A stretch of 64,000 nt of DNA. Source: Isurus oxyrinchus. Taxonomy: Eukaryota. A program made the position numbers and the translations under genes. Each line of letters begins with the position of its first letter. Position 1 is the stretch's first letter. Positions 11,946-63,967 of this stretch are shown here, in pieces. The notes under the pieces are model-generated. The model did no database searches. It saw only the letters and a list, made by a program, of their open reading frames with translations, and was not told the DNA's origin. Where the stretch lies: NCBI GenBank assembly GCA_026770705.1, contig JANJGN010000034.1, positions 6,572,001-6,636,000 on the forward strand, given 5' to 3'.

Positions 11946-11981
11946 AAATAAAGCAACTAATGCAGCAATTAGACGAATGCG
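11946..11981 (+). CDS. 36-bp phase-1 coiled-coil micro-exon (E)IKQLMQQLDEC
   Basis: tgcag|aaataaagc...gaatgcg|gtaaga; stop-free; symmetric phase 1. Confidence 0.65.
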
Positions 11982-12424
11982 GTAAGAAAAGAAATTATGA
12001 ACTTATTTACGGTCGAAATTAGATATGTCTTAGCAGAAAACAAAGTCTAGCCGCGGAGCCAGGATTTCCAATTTCACTTTGAATAATTGATAATGCAACA
12101 AACCATCTCACATAGTTAGAAGCAATTATATGACTTTCCGCAAACATGTGAAACCAAGTTCAATCTCTGTCTTTCCAACTGTCACATCCAACTTAACCAT
12201 TTTGGACGTTCAGTCTGATTGAGGGACAGCTATATTCCCTCTGACAGCCACGGATATTTTGAAGCCTGACAAGGCACACGACAATGTCCGCTCTCTCACA
12301 CGGGTCACGCAAGCTCTGAATTAGCCACAAATTAGCATCTTGAAGTAGTTATAGGAAACAACAGACAATATTATACTTCAGATGATGTGTGGTGAAAATA
12401 TAGGTCGTTGAGTACATGGAAAGA

Positions 12425-13085
12425 TAGAAATATTGAAAATAGTAGCATGAGTAGGCACACCGGCTCTTGGAACCGGCTCCACCATTCATTATGACCATGG
12501 CTGATCATCCACCTCAATAGCCTGGTCCGACCATTTTCTCATTGATCCATTTCACTGAAAGAGCTATATCTAACTCCTTCTTCAAAACATAATGGTTTGG
12601 CCTCAACTATCCCTTTGGTAGCGAATTCCACAGGCACACCTTTGTCCTCATCTCAGTCTTAAATGGTCTACCCCGTATCCTCAACCTGTGACCGCTGGTC
12701 TTGGACTTCCCCTACATCGGGCACATCCTTCCTGCATCTATCCTGTATAGTTCTGTTAGAAATCTGTAACTTTTATGAGATCAACCCTCATTCCTCTGAA
12801 TTCCAACTAATATAATCCTAACAGACTCAATCTCTCCTCATATGTCACTCCTGCCATCCCAGGAATCAGTCTGGTAAACATTTTCTGCACTCGCTTTATA
12901 GCCAAAACATCATTTCTCAGATATGGAGACCAAAACTGCACACAATATTCCAGGTTAGGCCTCGGCAAGGCCGTTTATAATTGCAGCAAAGCACCCATTC
13001 TCCTGTAGTCGAATACTCTCGATATGAAGGCCAACATACAATTTGCCTTATTTATCGCCTGCTGCACCTGCATGCTTACCTTCAG
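12425..13085 (-). mobile_element. CR1 LINE 3' end, antisense
   Basis: gtaggcacaccggctc...atggctgatc...gaccaaaactgcacacaatattccagg is typical antisense CR1 RT/3' UTR. Confidence 0.85.
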
Positions 13086-13849
13086 TGGCCAATTGGGAAG
13101 TGCTATGCTGAGTGCCGAAAGAAACTGTCAACTTCAGAAGATAGAAAACATGGACAGGCTTTAGACAACAAATCAGAAAATAAAGTACAGGAGAATAAAG
13201 GCAACCAGATAAATTTTGGCCTTCTGACGGAGATAAAATTAACCGCAGAGAAGCTTTGAAATGAAGGATGATGAAACACAGTATCAACTCAAGGGTGATA
13301 AAGTAATATAGACTGCCAAGAATATAATCTGGGTGCAGGAAATCAAATTCCAGCGCGGCTGCTCGTGGAGTTTATGAATTCAACCTTTACATTAAACAAA
13401 GAGGAAACAGATGCCAGCAACAGTGGTGATACATACGAAGCTACCACATGGCAAAGATAAATCCTTTTTTCACTAATATCATTTCGGGAAGGCATCCTTC
13501 AACCTTAACTTCTCTGCCCTATTCACACATGGTGATGACTAGTGTGTAACGTCAGCCTGCGTTTCTTTTTGCATGATGTGGTTCACAGGCCACCAGGCCA
13601 AATATGGACTTTAAAAAATTCCAATGGAGTTTAACTGGCTTCCTTAGGGTAAATAGAAATAGACCTGAGGGTCTCATGGGAATAAAACACTAAGAGGCAA
13701 TGACAGTTAAAAAAATAATAATTGTAACCGGGATTGGGACTTCCGATGTTTAATATTGGCAGTACAAAGCACGCTGAGGAACGAAGAAATGTTAAAGGTG
13801 AACTGGTGAATATACTGTCCTCAGAAAATCACAAGTCCCACACTAAATC

Positions 13850-14440
13850 TTATTGCGGACAACAAAAGTTCATGGCATAGGGGGTAACATATTGGCATGG
13901 TTAAAACATTGGATCGGTTAACAGAAAACAGGGAGTAGGCATATATGGGCCCTTCTCAGGTTGGCAAGGTATAACGAGTGGTGTGCCACAGGGATCTTTT
14001 CCGTGGCCTGAACCGTTTACAATAAATAAATGTGTGTATATATATATATCAATGACTTGGATGGAGGGATAGATGGGATGGTTGACAAGTTTTCTGACGG
14101 CCCAAAGATAGATCAGAAAGTAACTTGGGAAGAGGACAGAAGGAGGATACAAAATAATATATAAGGGTTAAGTAAGTAGGCAAGGATCTGACAAGTGGAG
14201 TAAAATGTTGGAAAATATGAAAATGTCCATTTTGTAATAAACAAAATGTAATTTAATGTTATCTAAATGGTGAGAGATCGCAGAACTCTTACCTGCAGCG
14301 TGACCTCGTTGCCTTAGTACATGAATCGCAAAAGGCTGGCATGAAGCTGCAGTACGTAATTAGCAAATCCAATAAAATGTTATCATTTATTGCAGGGGGA
14401 ATTGAATACAAAAGTCAACAATTCATGCTTCAGTTATATA
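13850..14440 (+). mobile_element. CR1 LINE RT fragment
   Basis: catggcatagggggtaacatattggcatgg...agtggtgtgccacagggatc (SGVPQGS) ...gcagggggaattgaatacaaaag. Confidence 0.85.
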
Positions 14441-14539
14441 CTGGAGAACATTGTTGCTACTGTAGGTCTACAAATGTTGTTGAGGGAACAAACAGAAAGG
14501 AAATAATAATTGGCTCTCACCCATTTATTTAACGCATAG

Positions 14540-14708
14540 ATGCATAAGCCCATCACAATATTGACATTAGTGAAAACCATTCAGTAATTGTGGAGCATAA
14601 CTCTGTTTTCACATGGAAGGTACCCCATCGTGCTGTGTGGAATTACTGCAATCATCAATGGCATATATTCATTATAAAGCCAGAAGCTAAATTCTTGAAT
14701 TGCAATAG
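14540..14708 (+). pseudogene. Copy B exon
   Basis: catag|...YPIVLCGITA...IAIG|gtacta; resembles DHLLVCAVDK...NALLG. Confidence 0.6.
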
Positions 14709-14807
14709 GTACTATGGGGCATCCCCAACAGCAGTATTGCACTCAACAGAAATATGTAACTGCAGAGCACGCTATGTCCCTCAATCTTTCTTTTACATAC
14801 GGTGCAG

Positions 14808-15186
14808 GTGTACATAATGTACATTGTGGGAAAAGACGTCAGGAGTAGCTGCAAACATACCTCGAATTGAAAAGCCAAGATAATGAAGAAGCAACACAAG
14901 ACACATATTTGGACTATTTTTAATGGACATTTTAACCGACGCCACAGCAAAATGATTGGATGAGAGCTCTGCAATCCTATCAAAGCCAATCCTGAATGGT
15001 GGTGGAGAAATGTACAAGGAGGAGCAACAGATCTCCCGGTATTATTTGACTCGTGGATTTCAGCACTGCAGTGCAAATGGAAGGCTGAATAATTGCAACC
15101 AGTTTCAGACAAGAGTGTTTAGCAGATGATCTAACTCAGCGTCATCCTGCAATTGCCACAATGATATATTCCTGTTTTTGCTTTAT
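14808..15186 (+). pseudogene. Copy B exon
   Basis: Pyrimidine tract then gtgcag|; GVHNVHCGKR~GFSGNCVGCGKK; EEQQISRYYLTRGFQ~KKQKHLKYYLVRNAQ (RYYLTR 15037-15054). 3' end approximate. Confidence 0.7.
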
Positions 15187-15479
15187 GTTAGTCACTAAAA
15201 ACGATGCCAATGAACGCCTGAATGCAATGGATATAGCTAAAATTATGAGCCCCAGGGGTCGCGTAGTTATATTGTCAGGGGATCGTAGACATCCAGCATT
15301 AGGCCATGTGTGGAACTTGCATTCGATTTAAAATGTTTGATAATGGTCATATTATAGATTTCCTTATGAACTTTAAAGAAGGAATTCTGTGGCTCTTAGC
15401 TGACCTGACTTAACCTGTGACTCCAGGTCCGCAGTAATGTGGTTCAGTGTTAAATGTGAACAAGGAATGAAACGGGCGG

Positions 15480-18185
15480 ATCACTCAGCATCGAGCCAGG
15501 CGTTGGAAACGACAGCAGAAAACCCAGCGCTGCAAAGTCCGCCTTACTAACAACTGGGGACTTGTGCCAAGATTGACAGAGTTGCCAGACTGACTAGGCA
15601 AGGAAAAATCTGATCTAGTCATGCGCATACACATGGGCTGTGTAGTAATGTCCCAGCAAAAGAACAGCTGGAGTGGTGCTAATATGATATGAAGTCGGGA
15701 GGGAGATGATATGGGCGTCCTCAGCATGGAGTCTGGTACCCAATTTCGCTGATGCAGCAGTGCTCCAACATGTTGAACAGCACTTGGAGGAAGCACTGAG
15801 TGTGGCAAGATTTGTCAATGTACTCTGGGTGTGGAAATTCAATGCTTATCACGGCGATTGGCTGGGCAGCCCCACGACAAAATGTCCTGGCCGGGTCCTA
15901 AAGGACATAGCTGTTATACGGGATCATTGGAATGTGGTGAGGGAGCCACTATGTCGGGAGAAATCTTGACTTCATTCTCAGCAATCTGTCTGCCGCACAT
16001 GCCTCAATCTATGAAACTTTTGGCATGGGTGACTATTACAAATTCGCTGTGGATGTGAATTCACAGCTTCGCATTTAGGATAAGCTGGACCGTGTTGAAT
16101 GCCACTACTGGCGTTTTCGAATAAACCTGTAACATAAGACTGGGCCATTATTAGGCGCTGTGGGCCAACAGCAGCGGCAGATTTGTACTCAACCACATTC
16201 TCTAACCTCATTTTCCGGCATATCCGCTACATCGCTATTGCCGTCAAGGCAGTTAATTAGCCCTGTTCAATGATGATTACAGGAGGGCTTGCCAGGAGCA
16301 GCACTAGGCATACCTTAACATTTGGTGTTAAACTGATGAAGCTACAACAAAGGGCTAGAAGCGTGCAAACATCATAAACAGCAAGTGATAGACACAGATG
16401 AACGATTATACAAGCAATGGATCAGAATCAAGCTCTACAATTTCTGCCACTTCCAGCTACTAGGGGAGGAGGCTCCACAGATATCTCTATGCATAGTGAT
16501 GGAAAAGCCCAGGTAGGCAATGCAAAAGTTGAGCTTGACGCATTGACAACAAACTTCAACCAAAAACAACAGATTGGATGATTCACCTTCACATCCTCCG
16601 GAGGTCCCCTGCATTACCGCTGCCAGTCTTCAGCTATTTCAATAAATTCCGCGGGATATCAAGAAAAGGCTGAAGGCATTGGAGTTAGCAACGACTTTGA
16701 TATTATTCCAGCAATATTACAAAAGTTGTGTGCTCCCAAAGCTGTCACCACCCTACCCAAACTCTTCGAGCACAACAGTAACGCCTGACATATTCCCAGC
16801 AATGCTGAATCTTGCCAGTTATGTACTGTTGACTAAAAAGGAGAACAAGACGAAGCCGACGGATTATCGCCCCATAAGTTTATTGTCCACCATCAGTAAA
16901 GTGTTGGATTGGTCATCACCAACACAGCAGAGGGCCATATGCTTAGATATAACCTAGTCGCTGACACTCAGTTTATATTCCGTCAGGTTCAGACAGCTTC
17001 GGACCTCATTATAACCTTGTGTCGAACATGGTCAAAAGCTCTGAATTCCAACGGTGGGGTGAGAGTAACTGTCCTTGTCATCAAGCCAGCATTTCACCCA
17101 GTCTGAGATCAAGGAGCGCTAGACTCCTTGGTAAATGTGAATCATGGGGATATGCCTGCGCTGGTTCGAGTCATACCTAGCACAATGGAGGTTGGTTGTG
17201 GTTTGCTGGACGTCAGTCATCTCACTTACAGAACATCACTACAGCCCGTGCTCAGGGAAGTACCCTGGGTCCAACAACCTTCAGCTTCTTCATCAATGAC
17301 ACCTTACACCTTAATGTCAGAAGAGGAGATGGTCGCTGAAGATTGCACAATGATCAACAAACCATTCACTACAATATGTAGGGTTAGGCTGACACGTGGA
17401 AGGTAACAGTCCCAATGGAAATGCAGGTCAATGGCCTCCTCTAACAAGAAATTATCTAAACATCACGGTTTGACATTCAATAGCGTTGCCATCACTAAAT
17501 CTCCCTTTATCAACTTACTGGGGGCTACCACTGACCAGCAAAATAATTCAACTAGCCTTATAAATGCTGTGGCTACAGGAGCAGGTCAGATGCTAGGAAT
17601 CCTGAGGCTAGTAGCTCACCTCTTCACTCCGAAAATTCTGACCACTGGCTATAAGATACAAATCGTGCATGTGATGGAGTGCTCCTCGCTTTCCAGCAAG
17701 AGTGCCACTCCAAAAACACTGAAGCAGCTTGATCGCGTCCAGGAAAAAGCGGTCCGCAAGACCTGTGCCCCTTCCACACACATTCACTCCCTGCAGCAAC
17801 TATGTACAATGGAAACACGGTGTGACTGTGCTAGATGCACTGCAGAAACTCACCAAGGCTCCTTTGGTAGTACCTTTAAAAACGCACAGCTTCTACCACC
17901 AAAAATGACAGGGGCAGCAGGTACAAGGGAGCACCAACCCCTGTTGGTTCCCGTCCAAGCCACTCACCAAGCTGCATTGGAAATATAACGTCGTCTTTTC
18001 ACGATCGCTCGGCTAAAACCTTAAAACCCCCTTCCTAAAACACTGTAGGTGTGCATAATGCACAAGGACTGCAACTGTTCAAGTAGGCAGCTCACCACCA
18101 CCTGCTCAAGTGCAATTACTGATGGGCAATGAATGCTGGTCCAACCTGGGAAGCCCATCTCTCTTAAATTAATTAAAAAAAATAC
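15480..18185 (+). mobile_element. CR1-group LINE, long decayed copy (APE endonuclease + RT + 3' tail + A-rich end)
   Basis: FNAYHGDWLGSPTT..GRVLKDIA (APE); DYRPISLLSTISKV; QFIFRQ..ASDLI; GYKIQI..VMECS (RT); tail ctcaccaccacctgctcaagtgcaattactgatgggcaatgaatgctgg then A-rich. Confidence 0.9.
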
Positions 18186-18229
18186 AAATCAAAGTTAAGC
18201 AATTCGCTGAACATTAGCTCCAAGTTTTA

Positions 18230-19650
18230 GATTCTTCCTCGACACCTAGATGCCCAATATCTACCCATCCAGGTCGAAAAGGCCGAGTTATTCCCAGTCT
18301 GAAAAATGCACAAAAGTTATCATCCATCCAGTTAAAGCAACATATTTTAACTTTCATTTATAAAAAAACATGAAAGATGCCATTGACCGTTCTATCATTG
18401 GCACTTAAACAACAATAGCCTGTTGAAAAATGCACATTTTGGATTCTGCCAAGGTAATTCGGCTCCTGACATCGGTGAACCTTGTTTCAAAGGTCCCAGC
18501 AGTGCCACACCCAGCCATGGCGTGAGTGTGATTTCCCGTGATATCAATGAAGCGTCAAATACCCCGGAAAGATTGTGAGGCGGCGGGTGAGGTGATATCC
18601 ATTATTTGTAGTTAGATCAAGCTGGAAAGGAATTGTTATTGTTTTCTAGAACCTGTCGGATCAATCCCAAGGCATCGGTGCAGAAATTCTTGAGGGAAAT
18701 GTTTGCCACCCAAACATTTTAATTTTCTTCAGCAATGACCTCACTTCCATCATATGGTCAAGCAGAAGAGGGCAAGTTCGCTGACCATTGGACAGTATTC
18801 AGACGTAATTCCTCATTTGTGCCCATATGCAAAAATGGCTTGAAAATATGCAGGCTTAGGCAAAAAATACGATGAAACGGTCGGCCATGCAAGAGGCAGG
18901 CAATAGCAATTTACAACAAAAGAAAACTTAATCATGTTCCATTGTCAATGCTGATTGCCTTACCAGCTGTATCCTGGGGATAAGCTTCTTTGTGGAGCTT
19001 AATTGACCGGCGATGTAAAGGTTGTAGCTATAAAATCACTTCACACACTGGAAACTATGTAGCGAGTAACTCACAGTAAAGCTCCCCAAGGCCTTTTCCC
19101 ATGTACAGCCATGAGTCAGGACAGTGATGGACAATGCCTGCAAGGCTAAAAATCCATCATGACTGAAGAGGTGTGACGCTATCCAGGATATAATGATAAC
19201 ATCATTATTAATAATAATAATAACAACAATTAGCCCTCTTCTTCAGCATCTTATGCATTGTCTGACCATCGATGTGCAACGGCAGCTTTCCTTTCTGTAA
19301 AAAAAATGATGCGCTGCAGCATCTAAGGACATGTCATTCAGCCGCAATTTCCAAGTTCGTGACATAAACCAATTAGATAGGAAAACACAGTAAACGTACG
19401 GGAAGACCAGAGCATTCAATTTCCTGTAAAAACAAAAACACAGAGCATCCTGTAATGGGAAAAAAACAAATACCTACATGCTTTTCCATGTGACTGACAC
19501 CAAATCCTGGAGGTTTGTTCATAGCACAATCTTGTTGTGCGTACACCTCATGGAATGCAATGTTTGAAGATGGATTACCATCACATTCGAAAGCGAAAAT
19601 ATAGTTGGCTACACTTGCCAGTGACGCTCATGTCCTGTGAAGGAACATAT
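18230..19650 (+). mobile_element. Second, older CR1-group LINE RT/3' fragment
   Basis: Degenerate similarity to the preceding element, ending cacttgccagtgacgctcatgtcctgtgaa. Confidence 0.6.
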
Positions 19651-20061
19651 CTGAAAATGAAATTAAAGTTGTTGACGTAGAAAAAACATTTCCAATTTTA
19701 TGTACCTAAATGGTCCAAAATGGGCAAATATATTTGTCAATTTGTGATACGATTAGGCACCATGCAATCATAAATTTGTTTCTGTCGAATTACGGCCGTC
19801 TATTCATGCACCAATCGTGAAGCGACCATAATTTCGAGTGAATGGTCTAATTTTGCTGTAATAACGAGGACCGTATGAATTCCATGCAACATGTGACTGT
19901 CCACATCTCGCTCAAAAACACACTTGAAATTTTGTAATGAAATCAGCTCGGAAAGAAATGTTAATATTTCGCTTTAAAAGTTATTCGGTTTGGGCTGCAT
20001 TATTCAAATTTATTTTCTTTGCTTAGTCTAAGTTCTACAATGTGTGCTCATATTAATGCAG

Positions 20062-20088
20062 AAAAAAAGTTGATTAAGAAACAAACAG
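20062..20088 (+). CDS. 27-bp phase-1 micro-exon (E)KKLIKKQT
   Basis: taatgcag|aaaaaaagttgattaagaaacaaacag|gtaaga. Confidence 0.65.
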
Positions 20089-20189
20089 GTAAGAAATGAA
20101 CAGGCAAAAGTATTTGGGAAGATCACGCTTCAGTTAAACAAAATAAAATCACCAGCTCCGACCTTTCTGACGCAGCGAAATAGATATAT

Positions 20190-20460
20190 CACTGTTGAAT
20201 GGATCGTTTAGAAGCATGGGATCTTGTTATTATTGAATGGAAACATTGGTTACAAAAGCCGACACGTTTTGCTGAATCTCGCTGTAAGCCTCTGGTTTGG
20301 CTACAGGTGGAGAATTGCTTCCAGCTCTGTACGCCGCATCTAGCGAAGAATGTGCATATGTTGAGCGGGGGCAGAACCGATTTTGGAAAATTAGTCAAAT
20401 AATGAGATAATTTAGCTGCAATGTTAATTACGCTAAGCAATACATCTCAGCCTTAATTTA
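20190..20460 (+). pseudogene. Copy B exon
   Basis: ORF 20199-20402 KPTRFAESRCKPLVWLQVENCFQLC~VPDNLLKICKAKPVIFKGHGNFPYLC; boundaries approximate. Confidence 0.6.
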
Positions 20461-20878
20461 AGAACCGAATTCCAACCCTACGGAGCAGAGAGTTTCCGTT
20501 ATCTAGTTCTCTTCCTGGAATAAATAATTATGTGTATGTCAGCCTCCTTGAACTGGTAGCCAACATTCGTTTAGACTCCAAGATTGTTCATTGCACATGT
20601 CAACATGCTTAACAAGATTTGTGTACCTGCACTCCAAACGCTTTTTTAAAATATTTTTGTGATGTGCAACACTTATCTTTCCTTTTAATCATGATTTTAA
20701 CCTATGATGTTTAAAGTAGGCGTCCCGAAAGGCAGGGGCAAATCTCCGGAAGGTAACCACGTTTTTCAACTATATTTAGGAAAGCTATTTTCTTTAATAG
20801 ACAATAAACAGCTTTTCAATTATTACTGTCTATTTCATACATAACTCTTCAACTTTCTCCCCGTTTTTCCACCGGCAG

Positions 20879-21260
20879 AAATTGTGACCCTATTTTTTCT
20901 AATGTGGCAAAGAATGACTGTGCAAAGTGTTTTCAAGTGGGTATGGAAAAAATCTTGAAAACATATTCCACCAGTTATTTGCAAAGAACGTGGAACATGA
21001 AGAAAATCATCAATAGCTTCCATGCAATTTGCGTTTGAAAACCTTCAACCATTCTACCTCCCTGGCGCTCAAAGCATTTAAATTGCAATACATTATCCCT
21101 GGATGTGTTAAAATACAACTTCTTTAACCTGATACAACAAAATAAGTATCTTTTCCAACAGCTAAAATTCGTGCCGAAGGCATTTAACCATCTTCTCATG
21201 GGGAATGTCGCAATCTTCTAACTCTTTATTGCACTTCCGGTCAAATACGTTGGCTGCAAG
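20879..21260 (+). pseudogene. Copy B exon
   Basis: ttttccaccggcag| ... GI*PSSHGECRNLLTLY~AIQPISEEMQLLLTVY ... caag|gtaatc. Confidence 0.7.
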
Positions 21261-21479
21261 GTAATCCGCAGCTTCGGCAGCCTAAACTCTGAGATCAAAA
21301 TCATTATAGCTGCATAGGTTCTGGCATACTTTCCTGCAACATTACAAGGAGCATTACATCCTCCGATCAATATGAAGACTTAACAAGTTGCAATACGCTA
21401 TTTTATGAATCCGTTTTGTTGTCTAAGCACTATCTTCCTATTCACTACCGCCTTCAGGGGTGTATGCACGTCAGCTCTC

Positions 21480-22300: not shown

Positions 22301-22394
22301 AACCAAGATGCAAGCCCTCCAGGCAGAGCTGGGCATAGACACCGCTCTCAGGGCACCCTTCTTCTTAGTTTTCATGCTATACATTACCTCCACC

Positions 22395-22960: not shown

Positions 22961-22964
22961 TAAG

Positions 22965-27385: not shown

Positions 27386-27399
27386 TGCTGCTCCATATT

Positions 27400-52271: not shown

Positions 52272-55200
52272 AACTGGCAAGGACGGTGAAACAGGATTGA
52301 ACAGAAGAAATCGAGTTATAAAAAACACAGCACTGCACCTCACACAGTGATTGAAAGTAGCAAACTCCATTAGAATGGAAGCAATTATCCTCTCTAAAAA
52401 TGCAACAATTTGGAAAATTGACCCTTCTGAAAATACCACAGGTGCTTGGTCTCAATACATAGAGTGCCTCACATTCTTTTTTCAAGATAATTAGATTGCG
52501 GGGTAAGAGAATGCGTATGTGGCCATCTTGGGTGCTTACGGATGCTAAAGCTATAGGCTGATTCGAAGGTTTACAGCAGCAAGTGCCCCAGATTCGAAGA
52601 ATTCTGATGAATTCATGGACCACGTGATTGTTCATTTTCAACCAAAGCCCTCAGTTGCGATGTACTTGTTCGGGTTTACTGAGCGAAATAGAGTCCTGGG
52701 TGAGACAATTGTATGCCTCATGGCATATTTTAAGCAGCGGACAAAACATTCTGAGTTCAACTCCGAATTACATGCTCGGTGGTCGTTTCAGATGTGGTGT
52801 GAAAGAGGAAAATTATTAAGAAAAGATAGTGAATAGTGAATCTCGATTTCAAGGAGGTGTTGGAGGCAGCTCTGGCCATAGAAAGCGCAGGGAGAGCTTC
52901 GAATCCAAGACACTTCACGCAAAATGACATTATCCTTCATATCGGACAGGAAACCTCAGTTGAAAGATTCTGTCAAAAAGCTGGAAAGAGCCCCCTGTTT
53001 CCGATGAATGAAGAAATATGGCTTAACAGTGAAATTTAAGAATAATTCTAATAGAGCTGAAAACAATCAGACTTTTAGCAAATAATCATTAAAAATAAAC
53101 ATCAAAAGCGGCTATTGCCATGGAAATTGACATTAGGTGAGGCAGTGCAGTGAACTTCAAGTAGGCTAGTAAACAAATGGAGAAACGCAATGAACCTGTC
53201 ATGCAGAAGAGCCTGTAACAGCAAATTCAGACATATACTCGTTGTTCAATCTGAAAGCTGAAAGGGCAAGACCAATTATTGTTGCGGTGAAAATAAACGT
53301 TAAACTTGTTAGAATAGCAGTGTACACGGAGGCTTTCACTATAGTAAGTTGAGTACAAAGCCTTCAGATATTTGAATAATAGGGAACATCAATTTACTTT
53401 AGAAGAAACACAAACCAAGCTGAGAACATATACAGTTGAACACGTTTCTGTAAAATACACAAGCAGAGTAACTGTCCATTACAGGAGCCAATCGGCAAAA
53501 CTATGCATGATGGTGGTAGCAGGTAAAGGGTCAAACCTCCTGGGGCGAAATTGGTTAAAGGGGATTAAGTTAGTTTGGGCTGTTTACATTTTCCAGTTGA
53601 GCGCCAGTGAGTTACCAGAGTTACTTAACCATGCACCATAACATTTAAGGACAAAGTAGGGAACATCCAGGGCCTGAAATCCAAGTTTCATGTGGTTCCG
53701 GATGGAACCCCTGACTTCACGAAATTGAGACTGCTGCCATACGGCCTGCAAGAAAAATATGTTATTGTATTTAACAGAATAGAGAAACTGGGCGTAACAC
53801 AAACTGTTCAGCTCTCAGGATGTGCAGCACCCAGAGTTCCCGTTCGCAAGCCCGACCATGATGCCCGAGTGGGTGCAAACTACGAAATGAAGGTTAAAGT
53901 AGCTTATCTAGACATGCACGCCATTCCAAAAATAGAAGACCGGAATGGCAATCTTGTAGGAGGTACAAAGCATAGAGATCTTTACGTGAGTCACGCTTAT
54001 CAATGGCTATAAATGCGTAATGCCTCTTGGTAAGTTGTCACAATTAATATCCAAAAAGTGTTGTACCAATATAAATGATGGCCTTTTGATGTCTATTCCG
54101 CTTGTGCTATCATTAAGAGAACAATGAAAAGCTTTCTGCAGGGGCTGCTCTGGATTGAAGCCTATTTAAATGATGCATTTCTTGGAGGGTTCATTTAAAT
54201 ATAACATTTGGTATACTCAGAAAAAGTCTAAAACGTTCTTTTGCAAAATGGAGTAGATTTAATGAAGGAAAAGTCCGCGGTCCATGCGAGTTACTTAATT
54301 TCCTTGGATGACTGGGTAGATTCACAGTGCCCCCACTCCATTGAGGAAAAAGCGACAATCAAAAGAGAGACATCTGTGCCAAAGATCGCCGCAGAGCTCA
54401 AATCATTCCTAGGAATGAACAAATATTATGGTTGGTCCTTACCCAACTTGCTCCTGCCCTTGCATTCTCTACTGAAAAACAACCAACCTTGGTCTTCAGA
54501 TGCACCCTGGAAAGAATCTTTGAGAAAGGTGAAATCATTGTTGCACTTAGCAAATAAATTAGTTTATTAAGACCAGGTGAAAGAATTGGTGCTTATATGT
54601 GGCTCCTCTCCCTACAGAATGATAGCAGTGCTATCTTATCTGATGGACAACGGCACAGAGCGGCCAATGGGTTGCATATCAAGAATGGTCACTACAGTAG
54701 AAAAAGTTTACTCGCAAATAGAACAAAAAATGCCTGCCCATCATCATTTTTGCCAAGACGTTTCACCAGCACTTAGACACCCGCCATTTTACAAGGGCTG
54801 CTTAGTGAGGACAAGGCTCTACCACCCATCGCCAAATCAAGAATTCAAACACGTGCTTTAATGTGCTTTAATTGTGGGAGCACACAAATACAGGTACATA
54901 CAAAGATCTGTCAATCAAATCGCAATCGCCAATGCCCTTAACGTTTTAGATTTGCAAGAAAATGATGAGCATGTCCAAGTTCCAAATTAAATTGTTTAAT
55001 GTTAAATTCATTACCGTCCCCGCAGGTATGTCCTTGACTGAATCAGAGACTACAAAAGTCAGAACCCAGTGCACTGTCAAATACGAAACTATGTTTTACA
55101 TGCTTGGCACAAGGGCCCATAACAGAATAAATGAAACTATACTTCAAGAGAAGAAAGGAAATAGACAGCCAGGATGTCATGTTATTGTGGGCAACAGTAG

Positions 55201-56442
55201 TTGATCTAAAGGGAAGCGGGATACTTTTAGTTGAACTAATGGCGCCCATCCAGGAATTAACCTGTTGAAGAGCACAGAACGTAACTCCCTATGGTGGCCT
55301 TCAATTGATGGCAAAATAAAGGCAGTAAAGCACTGTGTGCAATGTCAACAACTGCAAAAATTGACAGTGACAGCTCCATTTCATCCATGGGAGAGGCGAG
55401 GTAGAGCCTGGTTGTGGTTACATATTGACCATGTTGGACCTTTCAGGGAAAAAATGTTCACTGTTGATACACATTCAAAATCCTTGGACTATATGAGGTG
55501 AAGTCACCAATGTCGGCTGCTACACGCGACAAACTTCGACAGCGTTCTGAAATTCAGGGACTATCAGGACTCGTAATTTGCAATAACATGACAGCATTTA
55601 CACGTTCTGACTTTCAACAGTTAATCAGGCACATCGTTATAACTCCAGGCTGATCGCTATAACTCACGTGAAAACTGCAACATACCACCTTTCCTCAAAC
55701 AGACTGGCTGAAAGGGTGGTTCAAACGTCCAAACAGGCATTAAAAATTTAACTTGCAATTCCTTGAAAACGAAGCTGGCACAATTTAGTTTCCATTACTG
55801 GAATATTCCTCATAAAACAACAGATGTCTCTCCTGCAGAGTAACTGTTGAAACGCCATCTCATGACGAATTGAGCTTAATGATGTGGAATTTAGACAGCA
55901 AAGTGGAGTGCAGCTAGGAAAGCCAGAAAACCTAATAACACATGTATTGTCATGAAACGAAATTTAGCGTGGCAGAGCCAGCAGAGATGAAAAGCCTCAG
56001 GAATGAACCAAAGTGCTAATCGGGTGAAATAGGTGTTGCAACTGGCCTTTATCTTACCATATGGAGATAGAAAGCTGGATCGTTTGTAAACATGTGGGCC
56101 ATTTAAGGAAGGGACAAATCACCAAGATTTGGTTCCACCAATGATCATGGGCGGGTTAGCTTTTCCTGTTGAGAATATTCAGCCGAGCACTGACATGCCG
56201 AAAGTTCCTGAAAGAGTAGATCAGTTCAGAACTACAAGTGCCTACTGAAGCACCTGATGTTCAGGCAACTCCTGAAAGGGAGGCGCCTTACAAGGGAACT
56301 GTAATTATGAGCTGAAACGTTCCACAACTTCGAGGAAACCACCGGAAAGGCTGGACTTGTAGATTCCGTTCCCAGTGTAAATTATATGTTGCCATGAAAA
56401 ATATGTATTTTTCAATATACAGACGAATTAAAGGGAGAAGGA

Positions 56443-56695
56443 AGTGAAAAGTATCACTTTTAGTGCATAATGCACTTTTAAGAATAGCACTTGTTATCCA
56501 ACATTCCATGATCTATATTAATGATTAGGATAGTAGTTCGGGCTACCTTTGCAGCCAGTGTGGAGAAAGAGTTGGATTTGAAAGCACACGTGTAATTGGT
56601 GCTGAATATATTGCAAATAAACTTAATGTTCCCACCTAAAAAGCGTCTGCAGAGGAATTTTATCATTCATAGCACAACCGCACCAACCTGTAACA
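56443..56695 (+). repeat. 3' LTR
   Basis: agtgaaaagtat...aataaactt...tctgcag...ctgtaaca, directly after the PPT. Confidence 0.9.
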
Positions 56696-56950
56696 CCATT
56701 GTATTTGGTGCAATGCTTCAGCAATCCGACTGCAATGCTGGGATGTCCAGGCATCAGTTCTAAACACTGCCATAAAGATACAGTGTTGTAGCAGCCTGAG
56801 ATTACACGGCATCAAAGGACTTCTATTAGATCACTTGTAATTGTTGGAAACGCTTGGTGCTGAAATCAAAGCTGAAGTTTCGGCCACTAGATGCTGCATC
56901 ACGATTGCTTGTTCACATCGTCTAATGTAGCAGTCCCCCTTTCACCAATA
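56696..56950 (+). pseudogene. Copy B exon, 3' part (after Gypsy)
   Basis: IVFGAMLQ (copy A FLFSCMLQ; GREB1 AFSYSML); LGAEI~LGEEI. Confidence 0.65.
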
Positions 56951-57730
56951 GTAAATAATGGGTTTGCACTCCACGAATTTCCCCAAGCCTTGTTTTTGCT
57001 GCACATAGCATCTTACATGGCATTGTTTGTAGTAGGATTTCAAATCATTCTTCTGCAGCAGAATTCATGATTATTTCGGCAGCCAGCCAGCTTTCTCGTG
57101 CAGTATCCTTCTGCCACTACCAAGGCTGCATGCCACATCATCGACATACTCTCCCTCGTTTACCCTCTCACCAATCACAAACACAGACAAACGCAGACAC
57201 TGACACACACTGGCACACACTTGTCCATGTTCAATTGTACCCAGTCTCTGGCCAGGTGACTGTTCTTTCACAACCGCACCCTTCAAAGAAGGCGCTGTTC
57301 AATATGTGACATTGGGATGGTGCAACTGATTAACTTATTCTTTCCTCTGTGCATGTTTATTTTTTTACGTCCAGTGAATGAGAAGAACAATTATTTAGAA
57401 TCCACAAACGTACAATAACAAAACCGAAATAATTTGTGTGCTGGGTGGAGATCAGTGCAGACAAGCATGGAAGGAAAGCATGTTCAAACATTTCAGGTAC
57501 AATATATTGGCGGATGAGAGGTGGGTGGAATTAGAGAAAGATAAATATTGTTCTTGATACCATCATGATCACAGACACACTTCCTTTGGAAGACCAGTGT
57601 AATTTCTTGCAAGGCGTATAAACCTGCAGGCATGATTATCCCCCACCCCTCCCCACACTGCTCACCTCCCAGCAAGTCAGTTAATTACAGCTTCCTATTG
57701 TTATGATGTGCCTTCTCCTTATTCGCAAAG

Positions 57731-58246
57731 GTGAATTCTATCAATATGTGTTGTGAATGATTTCCCTATTCCGGGCTCTGTGGTTGAATAGATGTCATTG
57801 CACGTGTGTGCTATGCAAAATTGGTATATGGTTTACGGCTACACTCATGACATGAATATGCCACAAGCGTTAAGAATGGTATGGTTCAGTCGTTCTTATT
57901 GGCGGTTGCTAGTGGATGGATCATTATTGTTGCCATGAACTGAGCAGTGGAACTGGCTGCTTTTATCCTTTCTAGGATATGGCAATCGCTAATGAATTCA
58001 CCAATCTGGACCTCTCTTGTGAGATAATTAGCCGATCTTTTTATTGTGCTTCCAGTTTATTGCACTATACTGTTCCCGCAGGCCTGGGCTGCTATATCTT
58101 TTCCACTGCCAGCTGAGCATCATTCTAGATGCCCTCGAGCTCAGTAATTCTTTGAGTTCATTCCCTGTCATGGGAAGCTTTGCTGAGGTTTTAACTGCAA
58201 ATGCATTTGCTTAATCAATATAGAATGAACCTGGACGTTCAGAATT
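57731..58246 (+). pseudogene. Copy B exon (start of the TAGT domain)
   Basis: NSPIWTSLVR*LADLF~KSPTFTPTTGRHEHGLF; LSIILDALELSNSLSSFP~LHVLVVKEYEMAIYKKYWP. Confidence 0.6.
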
Positions 58247-58458
58247 GTAACTTGTCATTAAGCAGAGTTCAGCAAGCGCATTTTCGTGTCCCCTGTTTGG
58301 CTGTGCAACAAATGACCAGGGCTGGGATTGCTGGTTGCACGCAATAACCTTTCATCTAAAATAAATGAAATCATTGTATTTTTTGACTAACAATAAGTAT
58401 GCATTAAGGTTAATCATGGGCAGATTTTATTTTATATTTCGCCATTATAATATTTTAG

Positions 58459-58650
58459 CGGTAGGTTTTAAGAAGCCTTCTTTGTGTAAATTGGAATGTG
58501 AGATTTTGGAACGTTTGCTCATGACAGCACATTGTTCAGTACAACGCATAACTCTTCAGACATTGGAACCGTCCATGCCATTTGCAGCAGCACCTCGACA
58601 ACATTCAGGTGTGAGATGATAAGTGCCAAAAGACATTTACTGCACACAAA
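58459..58650 (+). pseudogene. Copy B exon (TAGT catalytic DD region)
   Basis: AVGFKKPSLCKLECEILE~GVGAAHFLIKELSYHNLE; SMPFAAA/LDNIQV*~IWPFIVISDDSCVMW. Confidence 0.7.
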
Positions 58651-58659
58651 TGTCAAGCA

Positions 58660-59160
58660 ATGAACATTATCAAGAAAGATAATCTTCCTGCTACTCCTTC
58701 GCAATCAATATCATTACGATATCCCATTATCAACCGGCCGGGAACTGACATCACTAAAGCTCCATTTCTGAATAAGATGAGATAATTCACTTTGACCAAA
58801 GCTAACCTTGATCACACATATCAAAAGTGTAACTGCACACGCAGGTAAGAGGCTGAAAATTCTGTGCCACGTAAGTGATCATTCCCTTCAGGAATTGTGT
58901 TCATAATGCCAATGCATAATTCAGCAGTATGGTGACATCTCCATTTGCCTTGCTGCGCGTTATTCCAACAAAGCTGAAAAAGCTCGACAACAACAAAAGC
59001 AAACCATCCCCTCTGATGGTCATCATCCATCACTTAAAAACTCATGGACTCGACCACCGACAGGCAATGCCAACAGTGTGCACCGTGTACAAAATGAAAG
59101 TACAGAATTGCTCAAGACGAGTTGGAGTGAACAATGAAAGTGCATGACATCTACCATAGG
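58660..59160 (+). mobile_element. CR1-group LINE fragment
   Basis: IPTKLKKLDN; caacagtgtgcaccgtgtacaaaatg family text. Confidence 0.65.
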
Positions 59161-59164
59161 AAAA

Positions 59165-60900
59165 CAGAATGTCTGTAGCACAGACGTAGGTCATTCAGCC
59201 CTTCTTGTTTCAGACAATTTGTCTTGTTCCATTCTTCTGCTTTCTACAAGCAGTAGGGCACAATCTTCATTTAAAAAAAAAACAATCAGGTTCCTTCTTT
59301 AATAACTCAGCTGAGCCTCCTTCACCAAACTGTCAGGCAGCAAATTCCAGATCCCATTAATTCGCTGCGTGAAGTTATTCTTCATTATTTCTCCTTTACT
59401 TCTTTTTTCAATTATCTTAAACCTGTGCCCTTTTGTTTCCCTCCTTTGCACCAATTGTAACATTATTTTCGCTATCCACTGTGTCCAGAAACCTCCTGAT
59501 ATTGAATAGCCTCTCATTCACATACTCTTCTTGATAAACAATATAAGCTTATGTCAACTATCCGTGTGATGCATGTTTGCAATTTTTATGTCCGGTTTAA
59601 TGCCTGCACAAATTTCGTGAATTTTTTTGAACATAAATAGACGCAGTGCCCTAGTGAAGGGCCAGCCAGTTTTATGCAACGTCACTGTAACAATTTTATT
59701 TTCGTTTCAGAGATGCCCCTATGAATAAAGCTTGAGAAGTTATGACATTTATTAACTACTCAACCTGCCCTGCCAAATTCAATGATTTATGCGCACATCA
59801 TATTGTATAACCTCTATGTCTGCACCGAAGGTATAATTATATCATATATTTTCTATATTCTCTTTGCTTTATTTATACTAACAAGAATGACTTCACATAT
59901 GGTGCATGCAATTTTATTGGCCACTTGTTCCCCTATTCCACCAACCTGCCTATATAATGTTTAAGTTGACACATGACAATGCTTACAAGATTCATATTAT
60001 CCACACATTTTGAGATTCTACCAAGGTCACCAAATTATTACTAAATTGCATATTTCAGGAGGAGCAAGGGATTTAACTCAGGATCCCAGACTGTTTTTTT
60101 TTTATCTGAAAATCCCTCTCCCTCTCTCATTTCTAAAAATAAAGTCGGTTATCATTCATTAAACACTACGGCTTGTTTCCTGCCACTCAATTTCGTACTA
60201 ATCTTGCTATTTTCACTTTTAATGCATAAATTGTAAGTCCGGGCCACAAAGATTAAGCTGGCTGGACCGACATTCCTGCTGTTGCCTGCACAGCATTTGA
60301 TTTGAACAGGTGTGCAAGTTTGCAAATCCTTATCCCCTGGCACCAAGTTTCATTGTAAGACATACTGTGAAGCTAAATCCAAATCCTCCCCAATTTCCAC
60401 TGTAACGTTCCTTGGCAACTTTAGATGTATCCCATACGGTCCAATTGCCATATGAGCTGTAAGCACACACAGCCGATCTAAAATATCTTCCTCATCAGTT
60501 TGAAACTTGTAAAGTGTCTGGACCGCTTTCACTTTCACCATGAAGTACATTGCATCTTGTTCATTTCGAAGGAGAAACGCAAAGTTTTGTACCTCAGGCA
60601 AGGCCCCTGTTTCTATTCGTTTTCGTGTCCAATCAGTTTTTCTTTTCTCTGATCAGTTTCAATGCTCATTTACATGCATTCTACAAGTTATAGCTTAACT
60701 CAAAATATTTTTCTTCCGTTTTAAATAGTTACTGGGCTGCTTTAATTCTCTCTTTTTGTATATATTATATATTTATTATTTTCATGTCCCCTATGAACAT
60801 TCGACATTCAGCCTGCTTTTAAGTTTTTATGTGCTCCTTATACCTATAAATGCACACTTTTCCTTCTTTATCTCAATCTGCATCTGTTTTATCTTCTTGG
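59165..60900 (-). mobile_element. Decayed CR1 LINE, antisense
   Basis: Minus ORF TKGHRFKI...NNFTQRINGIWNLLP (CR1 C-terminal TRGH..K...FF.QRVV..WN.LP); AIGPYGIHLK (GPDGIHP). Confidence 0.85.
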
Positions 60901-61364
60901 ATTTCAGGCTTTGTTTGCAATGCTTTTCATTTAATGCAAAGATATTTTGTCTCTGCCATAAATAATTCTTTTCGAAATGAAGCCCATTGTTCCGATAGTG
61001 CTTGGCCCGCCAGTTTCAAAGGGCATGAATTACAGACACATCAGATAATAGACACCTATAAGTTTGCTTCAAAGCCACGCACCACCCTGCGTAGCAACAA
61101 TATCAAACATCATTCACTGTCGCTGTATCAAAATATTTGTCCTCGCTTTCTAATAACAGTGTGGGTGTTGTCCATCTGCACTAAGAGGACTGCAGGTTTC
61201 AGTAGGCGACTCACGGCCATTGTTTTATGGGCAATTAGCAATGGTCAGCGTACTAAGACCTCACTGAGGACATGTATCTCCCATGAGAGGGAAACAGTAA
61301 AATAAAAACTTCAGAAAAGTCTCACGGCGCCTTTGATCCAGAAATTGGTGTGTCAAATTAAAAG

Positions 61365-61570
61365 GTACTAACATCCAGTGCAGTACTGAATAAAGTGCTT
61401 AACCACTGCAAGAGCCAACTTTTAGATTTCACGTTGAATCGAAGGGCTGTCTCCACTCTCTCAGGTCGCATTAAAAGGTTGCAGAGCGGGATTTTAAAGT
61501 AGAGAATGACAGTTGTCACGGTCAATATGCATGCCTTGGAAAAATTGCAGCCGGAATGTATTACCTGTTT
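61365..61570 (+). mobile_element. Deu-domain SINE fragment (SacSINE1/AmnSINE-like)
   Basis: cagtgcagtactga...ttttagatttcacgttgaatcgaagggctgtctccactctctcaggtcgcattaaaag matches the Deu core. Confidence 0.65.
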
Positions 61571-61724
61571 GTAATAACTGAAAGTCGTAGGTTCTGCAAT
61601 TGTGCAATGGATCCATTTTAAGTGTTCCTGATTTTTTGTAGTTTTGTTAGGGAGGCCTCTCTGTCGTGAATAGTCTTTTAGAAACGCAAGCCTTCATTTA
61701 TCCTTTACATTTAACATGTATAGG

Positions 61725-61930
61725 GACAGTAGTACATAAGACACTGCTTGAAACGAGCGTTGTCAAAGGAACTCGTTTTCGACAAGAATTCCAAAAAAAT
61801 ATGTCATTCAAATAAAAGTAGACAGTCGGCTAAGATTAATTTGTTAATGAGAAGGCTGGAGAATGCACTTTCAGAAATGTCAACTTTTCCAAATGTTGAG
61901 GACTGCAAACATCAGAAACACAAAAATTTT
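61725..61930 (+). pseudogene. Copy B exon
   Basis: LENALSEMSTFPNV~LKHIMQHIEAAPDI; boundaries approximate. Confidence 0.5.
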
Positions 61931-61987
61931 TCTTGATTGCACGGATTTAATTTAAAAAATTATTTGTTTTGCTTTTTTGGTTCTCAG

Positions 61988-62023
61988 AATTGGACAAACT
62001 GAAGGGAGTTCTCAGCGATACAG
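61988..62023 (+). CDS. 36-bp phase-1 micro-exon (E)LDKLKGVLSDT
   Basis: ttgcttttttggttctcag|aattggacaaactgaagggagttctcagcgatacag|gtgggg; paralogous to the 49292 exon. Confidence 0.75.
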
Positions 62024-62701
62024 GTGGGGTAATTAAATTAATTTACTATTTCAGAAATCAGTTGTTCTCATTGACCGGTACCTTGCAAAGAACTAACTGT
62101 CAAATAACATAAACCCTCATCCACATTCAATTTCACCATTAACATCATTGAAATCCATTACCTCAATACAAGTGAGTAATAATAGACTTGACAACATGTG
62201 AATGCCGTGGTACAGTTCATTTAACAAAATGCTTCAATCCAACTGAACACACCTGGAAATTAGAGGCCAAGGATCAGTCAAAACCTCTGCAAAACACTAT
62301 CACACCAAGTACTCACACGTAGAAATCTTCAGGTTTTCTGGTAGCACATACTTAGCTGGCAGCAATGTTTTAAATGAAGACATTACTTGAGTTTCATGGA
62401 AATATTTATCTGCTGTCAAGGACTACTAAATAATCCTAAAAGAATCATTGCACTGCAAGAAGGAACTCAACGCCATTTAGTTCATTTGACGAGATGAATA
62501 GTATGTGTTTCAGTTTAATATTAGCAGCACAGGTTCAATTCCCACCATGGCCGTGGTAGACTTCTGACCGGCCTTATTGCCCCGTTGATCGAAAATAGAA
62601 GGCAATGGGAAGGCATAACTGACTAAAACTGCCAAAAAAAAAAACAGCTCAGGATGAAGAATCCGCTGATAGTATTCCATGAACATGGCTTTAGGCAACA
62701 G

Positions 62702-63300
62702 GCACATAAGATACTAGACACCACGATTTATCTTACATGCGTGCATCATGGAATATTATTGTATGATTCAACTGTCTTTATTTAAAGGTTGTATAGACAT
62801 TTTCGGATAGTACTATTGCCACTATGACTCTGAACTGTTGAAGCTTCAAGAAAGACTATGTGTCTAACAGCAGATTGTACATATTGTATCAATGCTGAAG
62901 ATTACTATGAGATGCGTTTTTTTGTGTTTGCGTGTGAGTGCTGGATTGCGGGTGAGTTCGCACTTCCTGGTCCTCATTGTTCAGGAGTTATCAGATTACA
63001 CTGTTCTATGATGACAAGGCTGGAAGTTGTTTGCAGGAGACAGAGAGCAGCGCGGTTAAGTTTGGCCTCGAGTGTGTAAAGCTCTAAAGCCAGGGTCAAG
63101 TAAGAGGTACTAATTGTTGCAGTGCAAATTAATTTGTTGATATAGATAATATTGTTTAGTGCTAAGATGAAGGATAAAATGTGGCGTTCATGTGCAGTTG
63201 CTGTGATTTGCATTGTGGCCTGCATGATGTAATTGACCATGCGGAGGTATTAATAGGCAAATTCACCTGCCTGACTCCTTTTTATCAATGTTAGTGGAAA
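62702..63300 (+). pseudogene. Copy B last recognisable exon (TAGT end and C-terminal domain)
   Basis: SFKKDYVSN~PFSRCHVHN; LCLRVSAGL~FNLRVHSAGL (62928-62948); VWPRVC..KPGSSK~VVPAQYICAPDSK; VICIVACMM*L~VLSVDCYLNL. Confidence 0.7.
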
Positions 63301-63937
63301 ACTTAACGGAGATTTGTGCATATTAGTCATTGGAGTTCCATTCAAAAAAGATTAATCTTCAATTAGCTGCAAACAAGTTGATATCTGAAATTATAGCATA
63401 AGTGCTGGGAAAACTCAATGGGTCTGGCAGTGTTTAAGGAGATTGAAGCAACGTTAACGAGTCGAGTCCGTAAGGCACTTTTTTAAAGATGAAAGGTAAA
63501 ACTGCGCCCGGTTTTATGCTGTTAATCAGGTCGAGTGTGTGTGTGGTGTGGAGCAGCTGGAGCAACATAGCAGGTCAGCGATATGTTTGAGGGTAGCAGT
63601 GGTAAACTGACAAGGACGTCTTGGACACAAGGCACATGAGAGTAGTAAATGACTAAAGCAAGTGTTAATAGCAGCAGTAAGGTCATAATTATGAATATAA
63701 TAATGGCAGAACAAGAGTCAGAGCTTTCTGAAATCAAAGTGTTGGAACAAGGTACAGACTGACGCTTGGGGAAGGAGGCAGAGTGGTGATAGAAAAAACA
63801 AACAATGAAATGATGAAAAATTTCTTGGTCCTAAGATGTTGAAGCCAATGTTAAGTCCAGAACTATGGAAAATGTGTAATCGGAAGATTAGATGCAGTTT
63901 CCCGTTATTCATGGGCATTACTGGGACATTGTAGCAG

Positions 63938-63967
63938 GCCAAATTCAGAAACGCGAGCATGAGGACT
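63938..63967 (+). CDS. Candidate 30-bp phase-1 micro-exon (G)QIQKREHED
   Basis: gtagcag|...gaggact|gtaagt; strong donor, weak pyrimidine tract. Confidence 0.4.

What the first reader, a model, noticed from the sequence alone, without database searches (positions are those of the whole stretch)
11946..63967. Hidden micro-exon gene: 11+ symmetric 24/27/36-bp exons spread over 50 kb splice into one coiled coil
Seen in sequence: AG..GT-bounded exons at 11946 (36 bp), 20062 (27), 23722 (27), 25505 (27), 28901 (24), 29728 (27), 39881 (27), 49292 (36), 50046 (27), 50175 (27) and 61988 (36). All are multiples of 3 and stop-free in the phase-1 frame, and most have pyrimidine tracts and GTRAG donors. 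Joined in order they read (E)IKQLMQQLDECEKKLIKKQTELQALLEKTMKHLFEKENEIKDLKDKAAHVADSAKENKLKKCLKELEKTKTLLNDTEIKLRNCEKALKEKCNNYELDKLKGVLSDT. Motifs recur across junctions (LDEC|EKKL vs LRNCEK|AL vs LKKCLK|EL). ORF finders cannot see this. Established: short phase-1 heptad exons are typical of butyrophilin and chicken B-G cytoplasmic tails. Inference: a possibly live gene whose terminal domains lie outside the window; identity unknown.
Basis: partly seen in the sequence, partly recalled or inferred. Interest (0 to 1): 0.88.

Follow-up and report, generated by a model that had tools for sequence, protein, structure and literature searches.

The report
Megabase micro-exon coiled-coil B30.2 gene
The tiny exons are real and conserved, and they lie inside what appears to be a million-base cartilaginous-fish gene that likely spells a very long helical rod in over 300 pieces of 21-36 bases, tipped by a B30.2 binding domain; its function is untested.

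Summary
All 11 exons are present, AG..GT-bounded and open in phase 1. All 11 keep length, splice sites and frame in a tandem paralog 1.08 Mb upstream. The window is about 6% of a gene spanning about 1.06 Mb, with at least 305 phase-1 micro-exons (6 on the minus-strand control; about 3,200 codons), ending in an intact B30.2/SPRY exon. Selection is shown: dN/dS 0.40 with dS equal to intron divergence, and 75 of 77 paralog exons intact here against 25% of controls. No Ig, transmembrane, RING or B-box exon was found, so it is not filed as a butyrophilin, B-G or TRIM. Its B30.2 falls in a separate clade whose named members are all cartilaginous fish, auto-named TRIM39/A33-like; their isoforms differ by 9-residue cassettes. 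Best reading: a soluble, parallel coiled-coil rod up to about 0.5 micrometre with B30.2 heads, length-tunable by exon skipping. There is no RNA evidence for this gene, and the first coding exon was not found. This scan has already reported this gene and its neighbours from other windows.

The parts
1..64000 (+). Internal slice of gene A. The gene runs from about 138 kb before the window to about 861 kb beyond it (G000:C34 about 6.434-7.497 Mb; window = 6,572,001-6,636,000). Its terminal B30.2/SPRY exon with stop lies outside the window at G000:C34:7,496,442-7,496,962
   Evidence: terminal exon (SPRY E 3.5e-12)
11946..11981 (+). 36-nt phase-1 coding micro-exon
   Evidence: 3 mismatches in paralog, sites kept
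20062..20088 (+). 27-nt phase-1 micro-exon
   Evidence: 5 mismatches
23722..23748 (+). 27-nt phase-1 micro-exon
   Evidence: 2 mismatches
25505..25531 (+). 27-nt phase-1 micro-exon
   Evidence: 2 mismatches
28901..28924 (+). 24-nt phase-1 micro-exon
   Evidence: 1 mismatch
29728..29754 (+). 27-nt phase-1 micro-exon
   Evidence: 3 mismatches
38009..38044 (+).
   Evidence: (1 mismatch)
39881..39907 (+). 27-nt phase-1 micro-exon
   Evidence: 3 mismatches
44184..44219 (+).
   Evidence: sites kept, 8 mismatches; 2nd of 430 by splice score
45579..45605 (+).
   Evidence: (2 mismatches)
49292..49327 (+). 36-nt phase-1 micro-exon
   Evidence: 4 mismatches
50046..50072 (+). 27-nt phase-1 micro-exon
   Evidence: 0 mismatches
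50175..50201 (+). 27-nt phase-1 micro-exon
   Evidence: 3 mismatches
61988..62023 (+). 36-nt phase-1 micro-exon
   Evidence: 4 mismatches
5697..5717 (+). Possible 21-nt exon (weak)
   Evidence: 95% identity, modest splice score
45319..45333 (+). Possible 15-nt exon (weak)
   Evidence: sites kept, 73% identity

Best explanation
The window is an internal part of a conserved gene of about 1.06 Mb whose 300-plus symmetric micro-exons are predicted to splice into a roughly 3,200-residue coiled coil ending in a B30.2 domain, likely a soluble two-chain rod that tethers or spaces whatever its B30.2 heads bind. Shown: exon anatomy, purifying selection in both tandem copies, heptad periodicity, an intact terminal B30.2 exon, and no Ig, TM or RING exon detected. 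Inferred: one transcript runs from the 5' block to the B30.2 exon (about 0.8). The gene grew by tandem duplication of exon cassettes, above all the 36+27-nt pair that equals three heptads. Because every exon is phase 1 and a multiple of three, exons can be skipped without a frameshift and rod length tuned. The chains pair in parallel, with Cys at one d position and Lys at another in each 21 residues fixing the register. The protein is cytoplasmic and structural, in the manner of the B-G-derived zipper protein (about 0.45 for this functional step). Full length would be a rod of about 0.47 micrometre (0.148 nm per residue, established value).
For: Exons real and beyond chance. Of exons scored in the paralog alone 75 of 77 are intact in this copy, and 71 of 77 the other way, against 643 of 2,591 and 646 of 2,634 control AG..GT pairs; dN 0.085, dS 0.212, intron divergence 0.212, 89 exon pairs. 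Unbroken plus-strand array from 6,459,146 to 7,492,642: 305 exons at score 10 or more against 6 on the minus strand, largest gap 24 kb. The next B30.2 exon downstream is at 7.496 Mb, and none was listed between it and the window. Hydrophobic period 3.49-3.52 in four segments. In 78 pairs of 36+27 nt, a positions are 82-94% L/I/V/M/F and d positions are Cys 73%, hydrophobic 55% and K/R 85%. RefSeq models of clade members are coil plus B30.2 only, and their isoforms differ by 9-residue (also 6- and 7-residue) blocks in chimaera, catshark and electric ray. One such 9-residue block sits where this genome has a 27-nt Trp-containing penultimate exon.
Against: No spliced read or transcript of this gene was seen, so the joined protein is a model. 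The first coding exon was not identified. This copy lacks 241 kb present in the paralog, including a 111-nt exon and about 41 micro-exons, so its N-terminus is uncertain. dN/dS of 0.40 (0.52 on 11 window pairs, small counts) is moderate constraint, and part of it could be splicing-enhancer constraint. Annotated clade members found are only 230-945 aa. In the window the exon lengths do not sum to whole heptads, so the coil needs stutters or more exons are missing. Regular Cys is easier to explain outside the cell. One exon copy in the 21-nt region has lost its donor (6,491,721).
Confidence: 0.75

Rival explanations
1. Same gene, but the protein is secreted and forms a disulfide-stapled extracellular fibre or gel (for example in a reproductive or glandular secretion), with Cys at d positions cross-linking parallel chains.
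For: Cys at a fixed d position in 73% of 78 three-heptad units; 131 Cys in 3,226 modelled residues. The skate model XP_055510696, in the same sub-branch, begins with a hydrophobic, signal-like stretch.
Against: The skate stretch may be a translated intron acceptor (inference from its ending and from intron-like starts in P0005 and P0037). Catshark, electric-ray and chimaera models start without one. No signal exon conserved in both copies was found.
Confidence: 0.25
2. An innate-immune sensor or adaptor: a RING-less TRIM/BTN-like protein whose B30.2 recognises a pathogen or metabolite ligand, with the rod adding avidity or reach.
For: The profile's best solved matches are the B30.2 domains of BTN3A1 (E 6e-33), TRIM7, TRIM21 and pyrin. 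B30.2 genes are heavily expanded in this genome (150 listed matches, mostly on one other contig).
Against: No effector domain was found. The two B30.2 copies are 92% identical with dN/dS 0.45, showing no sign of diversifying selection. A rod of 3,000 residues is not needed for sensing.
Confidence: 0.15
3. The array is not one gene product: several shorter transcription units or many short isoforms use subsets of the exons, so the full rod is never made.
For: Annotated relatives found are under 1,000 aa. Symmetric exons are freely skippable. No full-length RNA was seen.
Against: No second terminal exon or other domain in 118 gene-body ORFs of 125 aa or more. Exons are under selection throughout the 0.4 Mb that could be compared. 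ESM Atlas lists chordate SPRY clusters of 1,277-1,802 aa near the catshark protein (lead only).
Confidence: 0.17
4. This copy is a pseudogene left by the tandem duplication, or the exons are chance AG..GT matches.
For: It lost 241 kb of 5' coding region relative to the paralog.
Against: 97% exon survival against 25% expected at the same divergence; intact terminal exon; own copy of the 22-kb 5' block; minus-strand and shuffle controls empty.
Confidence: 0.03

Closest known systems
Uncharacterised chondrichthyan coil + B30.2 database models (XP_055510696 skate, XP_038668997, XP_038671249 and XP_038672306 catshark, XP_069775384 and XP_069797409 electric ray, XP_042191566 chimaera, GCC29436 bamboo shark), auto-named TRIM39/58/69-like or A33-like
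   Same: Same B30.2 clade (100/99); coil plus SPRY only; isoforms differing by 9-residue blocks.
   Different: The models are 178-945 aa against about 3,200 plus 173 aa here. No functional study was found (paper searches).
Butyrophilins (BTN/BTNL, e.g. BTN3A1)
   Same: Heptad coil followed by C-terminal B30.2 (PMC4046983 and PMC12841164, passages); coiled-coil dimer modelled as parallel (PMC10665462, passages); best PDB match of the domain profile.
   Different: No IgV/IgC or TM exon found; hundreds of exons rather than a few heptads; separate B30.2 clade.
Chicken B-G genes and the zipper protein
   Same: Coiled-coil tail built from many tiny exons; zipper protein was described as a soluble tail that controls actin-myosin interaction (PMC4046983, passages).
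   Different: B-G has an Ig-V and TM and 13-36 exons of 21 (or 24) nt (same paper). Here there are over 300 exons, mostly 27 and 36 nt, with a B30.2 end. That B-G lacks B30.2 is recalled.
Enterophilins (guinea pig)
   Same: Recalled: soluble proteins of many heptads ending in B30.2. Only a table row on SNX1 binding and a reference were seen (PMC13749957, passages).
   Different: Mammalian, far shorter (recalled); no sequence comparison was made here.
TRIM proteins with PRY-SPRY (TRIM39, A33)
   Same: Coiled coil plus B30.2; source of the database names.
   Different: No RING or B-box in this gene or in the 7 clade models scanned; different exon design.

Membership tests
Butyrophilin (BTN/BTNL) | Extracellular IgV (and IgC) exon(s) | tested here: not met
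   No Ig hit in 145 of 158 plus-strand ORFs of 68 aa or more at 6.372-6.462 Mb (left out: 12 short ORFs upstream of the paralog's last exon and the SPRY ORF), 63 of 139 ORFs at 4.81-5.0 Mb (those up to 4.90 Mb), 118 gene-body ORFs of 125 aa or more or 37 window ORFs. In 127 of 127 ORFs at 5.0-5.1 Mb the only Ig-type row was a weak CD3 Ig_4 hit, E 0.039, under cut-off. No D-x-G-x-Y-x-C motif in either 5' region.
Butyrophilin (BTN/BTNL) | Transmembrane exon | tested here: not met
   No symmetric phase-1 exon of 45-420 nt with strong sites and a TM-level hydrophobic run in gene A or the paralog's 5' part. Weak-site or non-symmetric exons were not excluded.
Butyrophilin (BTN/BTNL) | Short heptad-encoding exons before B30.2 | tested here: met
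   sizes mostly 27 and 36 nt, 14 of 315 are 21 nt
Butyrophilin (BTN/BTNL) | C-terminal B30.2 domain | tested here: met
   SPRY E 3.5e-12; profile aligns over positions 2-162 to BTN3A1 B30.2; Pfam PRY not hit
Butyrophilin (BTN/BTNL) | B30.2 groups with BTN domains | tested here: not met
   16 rows form a separate clade, 100/99, against 7 BTN and 14 TRIM rows; deeper branching unresolved, midpoint root
Chicken B-G | Single IgV plus TM | tested here: not met
   as above
Chicken B-G | Tail of 21-nt exons | tested here: not met
   153 of 315 are 27 nt, 136 are 36 nt, 14 are 21 nt
TRIM (RBCC + PRY-SPRY) | RING and B-box | tested here: not met
   No motif in either 5' region; no Pfam hit; none in 7 clade models
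Chondrichthyan coil + B30.2 clade (unnamed) | B30.2 in the clade, coil only upstream, 9-codon cassettes | tested here: met
Enterophilin-like soluble coil-B30.2 proteins | Cytoplasmic location, no signal peptide | tested here: inconclusive
   first coding exon not found
Expressed gene | Junction-spanning transcript | not testable with these tools
   see Tried and rejected

The most novel reading that the evidence does not exclude
Cartilaginous fishes carry an undescribed family of giant rod proteins built almost wholly from frame-neutral micro-exons. This copy has over 300 coding exons and its upstream paralog, by extrapolation, about 400, more than titin's 364. They are spliced across 1-1.5 Mb into Cys-stapled coiled coils of about half a micrometre whose length is set by exon skipping: a modular molecular ruler or fibre capped by B30.2.
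Probability: 0.4. Interest if true: 0.85.

Novelty: new variant of a known kind. Interest (0 to 1): 0.66.

Why it matters
If spliced as modelled, this is among the most exon-rich vertebrate genes (titin, the mammalian record, has 364 exons; PMC6279932, passage), yet it is invisible to ORF finders and held in databases as short, misnamed TRIM-like fragments. It would be a natural test bed for how hundreds of 21-36-nt exons are recognised across kilobase introns, for coil growth by exon-cassette duplication (12+9 codons = three heptads), and for where the heptad-exon/B30.2 design of butyrophilins came from. It also points to a cartilaginous-fish protein family with no assigned function.

Tried and rejected
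RNA: no RNA holder listed for window 45000-54000. Three small runs labelled as the same species (RNA is a guess) gave no cover of the terminal exon. Neither counts for or against expression. One run of another organism label covered that exon's region with contigs at about 92-97% identity. A two-copy complex prediction of the skate relative gave no verdict (score 0.01). Single-sequence search for longer relatives of the B30.2 exon: none of 832 candidates scored; the profile search found 91, mostly TRIM/BTN. One giant gene with an internal duplication: rejected, because each copy has its own B30.2 exon with a stop and its own 5' block. This copy as a headless duplicate: rejected by the shared 22-kb 5' block. 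First coding exon: not established. A 30-nt conserved candidate at 6,452,560, a conserved donor at 6,440,476 and a hydrophobic ATG-led stretch just after it were examined. N-termini of six relatives gave only chance-level matches (best E 0.058 among the first 30 rows printed). Window candidates 31239, 58588 and 58591 are rejected (stop, indel or lost site in the paralog). 63710 and 56423 are unsupported (single-copy score only; absent from the top 26 of 430). The V-set genome search lists only the top 150 and showed one match on this contig, at 13.07 Mb. Literature: five searches found no paper on this family. Subscription journals and preprint supplements were not searchable, and no supplements were read. 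The paralog was read only at 4.81-5.20, 5.34-5.84 and 6.372-6.396 Mb.
Full report
1. Observation. All 11 segments are at the stated places, flanked by AG and GT, multiples of three and open in phase 1. With generic splice weights they crowd the top of 2,963 plus-strand candidates. With a model trained on distant exons of the same gene, the window gives 9 hits on the plus strand, none on the minus strand and none in 40 shuffles; the training set came from an earlier model that had seen window exons. The window is G000:C34:6,572,001-6,636,000 in a 4.98-Gb genome, and its 50-kb region has one other copy 1.08 Mb upstream. That copy is collinear for more than 400 kb at about 79-81% identity, which makes an internal conservation test possible.

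2. Conservation. All 11 exons keep AG, GT, length and frame in the copy, with 30 mismatches in 321 nt. Two further exons (38009, 45579) behave the same way, and 44184 is probable. Over 264 kb there are 86 conserved open phase-1 candidates on the plus strand (61 of 27 or 36 nt; overlapping candidates counted) against 7 on the minus strand. Exons called in one copy alone are intact in the other in 75 of 77 and 71 of 77 cases, against 25% for control pairs. dN/dS is 0.40 over 89 pairs, with dS equal to intron divergence, 0.212. Both copies have therefore been selected as protein-coding since the duplication.

3. Whole gene. A SPRY-bearing exon lies at 6.396 Mb and a 92% identical one at 7.496 Mb; each has a phase-1 acceptor and a stop. 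DNA after the first matches DNA after the second, and 6.434-6.456 Mb matches 4.828-4.850 Mb. These are two tandem genes: B (about 4.83-6.396 Mb) and the window's gene A (about 6.434-7.497 Mb). I read all of A. It holds 305 scored micro-exons at the strict cut (6 on the minus strand) or 315 at the looser cut (10 on the minus strand): 153 of 27 nt, 136 of 36 nt and 14 of 21 nt, 3,226 codons, median intron 1.9 kb. The model finds only 9 of the 13 paralog-validated window exons, so this is an undercount. A lacks 241 kb of B's 5' part, with a 111-nt exon and about 41 micro-exons. B was only partly read; adding its scored extra exons to A's and extrapolating over unread stretches gives about 400, an estimate and not a count. 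The first coding exon was not found in either gene.

4. Protein design. The modelled chain is rich in K, E, L and D, with a hydrophobic period of 3.49-3.52; 238 of 315 junction residues are Glu. In the 3' part the unit is a 36-nt plus a 27-nt exon, 21 residues or three heptads. Its a positions are 82-94% aliphatic or Phe; its d positions are Cys (73%), hydrophobic (55%) and Lys/Arg (85%). From established coiled-coil rules this suits a parallel, in-register dimer (inference; not tested). In the window the pattern is less regular and needs register shifts.

5. Family. No Ig, TM, RING or B-box exon was detected in the 5' regions or the gene body (subsets are given in the membership table). The closest database proteins are cartilaginous-fish models auto-named TRIM39/58/69-like or A33-like that contain only a coil and SPRY. 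With five exons of this contig they form one clade (100/99, long stem) apart from 14 TRIM and 7 BTN rows. The clade rows were chosen by similarity to the query, and the deeper tree is unresolved. RefSeq isoforms of chimaera, catshark and electric-ray members differ by 9-residue blocks, with one 6- and one 7-residue block. This is indirect evidence that such exons are spliced and skipped in the family; it is not evidence for this gene. The best solved match of the domain profile is BTN3A1 B30.2.

6. How it most likely works. Shown: exon anatomy, selection, heptad register, intact B30.2 end. Inferred: one long transcript; growth by duplication of exon cassettes (visible as repeated exon series at 7.0-7.17 Mb); length tuning by frame-neutral skipping; a parallel dimer of up to about 0.47 micrometre carrying two B30.2 heads. 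I commit to a soluble structural tether (about 0.45), by analogy with the B-G-derived zipper protein that controls actin-myosin interaction (PMC4046983, passages). Rivals are a secreted disulfide-linked fibre (0.25), short isoforms only (0.17), an immune sensor (0.15) and a pseudogene (0.03).

7. Known systems. It works like the intracellular half of a butyrophilin or a B-G tail, but fails their defining Ig/TM tests and the TRIM RING/B-box test. B-G tails have 13-36 exons of 21 or 24 nt (PMC4046983, passages). Butyrophilins are reported across jawed vertebrates, cartilaginous fish included, and their described architecture is IgV, IgC, TM, heptads and B30.2 (PMC12841164, passages). BTN3 juxtamembrane coils are modelled as parallel dimers (PMC10665462, passages). 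Titin has 364 exons (PMC6279932, passages). Enterophilin is recalled; only a table row and a reference were seen (PMC13749957). Searches returned no paper on this family, within the limits of the library.

8. Earlier notes. After I had reached this reading, one search showed 68 notes in this genome fitting the words, 8 displayed, describing the same gene and its neighbours. They agree but are not independent support. Two added leads: the size of the next gene upstream, and 15-nt exons.

9. Verdict. Observation confirmed and extended; interpretation partly right. This is a new, extreme variant of the heptad-exon plus B30.2 design. Interest 0.66, limited by the lack of RNA evidence and of any function.

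Noticed in passing
G000:C34 2.708, 3.474 (minus) and 4.817, 6.396, 7.496 Mb (plus): Five B30.2 exons of the same clade on one contig. The three more distant ones also have 27-nt (one also 36-nt) phase-1 exons just upstream. The 3.474 and 2.708 genes pair with catshark and electric-ray models.
   Followed up: partly
G000:C34 4,850,373-5,091,193 and about 5.20-5.435 Mb: Two large blocks of the paralog are absent from the window's gene, including a single-copy 111-nt exon and about 41 plus 26 scored micro-exons.
   Followed up: partly
G000:C34 6,459,146 (L071): The first retained micro-exon carries an in-frame ATG kept in both copies, a possible replacement start after the 5' deletion.
   Followed up: partly
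G000:C34 7.00-7.17 Mb (L169-L186): Near-identical exon series repeat many times, showing recent tandem expansion of multi-exon cassettes.
   Followed up: partly
L142:5485-6959 against L065: The 3' ends of the two copies are closer (89% around the penultimate exon; dS 0.094 in the B30.2 exon) than the 0.4-Mb background (0.212). Gene conversion or local constraint; unexplained.
   Followed up: no
L067:3857-4807 (C34 6,415,857-6,416,807, +): Broken rhodopsin-family 7TM reading frame with stops, between the two genes.
   Followed up: no
window 9403-10959, 52636-56488, 56679-57088: Stretches without a counterpart in the paralog, likely insertions; no Pfam hit in 37 window ORFs.
   Followed up: partly
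window 35072-35196: 59-nt tandem duplication, 2.1 copies, intronic.
   Followed up: no
L044:5352-6974, L050:3307-3930, L187:1588-1962, L162:8263-8946: Intronic retroelement remains: three RVT_1 frames and one with a weak OSK hit.
   Followed up: no
G000:C21 about 82-118 Mb: A very large cluster of other B30.2 exons; most of the 150 listed matches.
   Followed up: no
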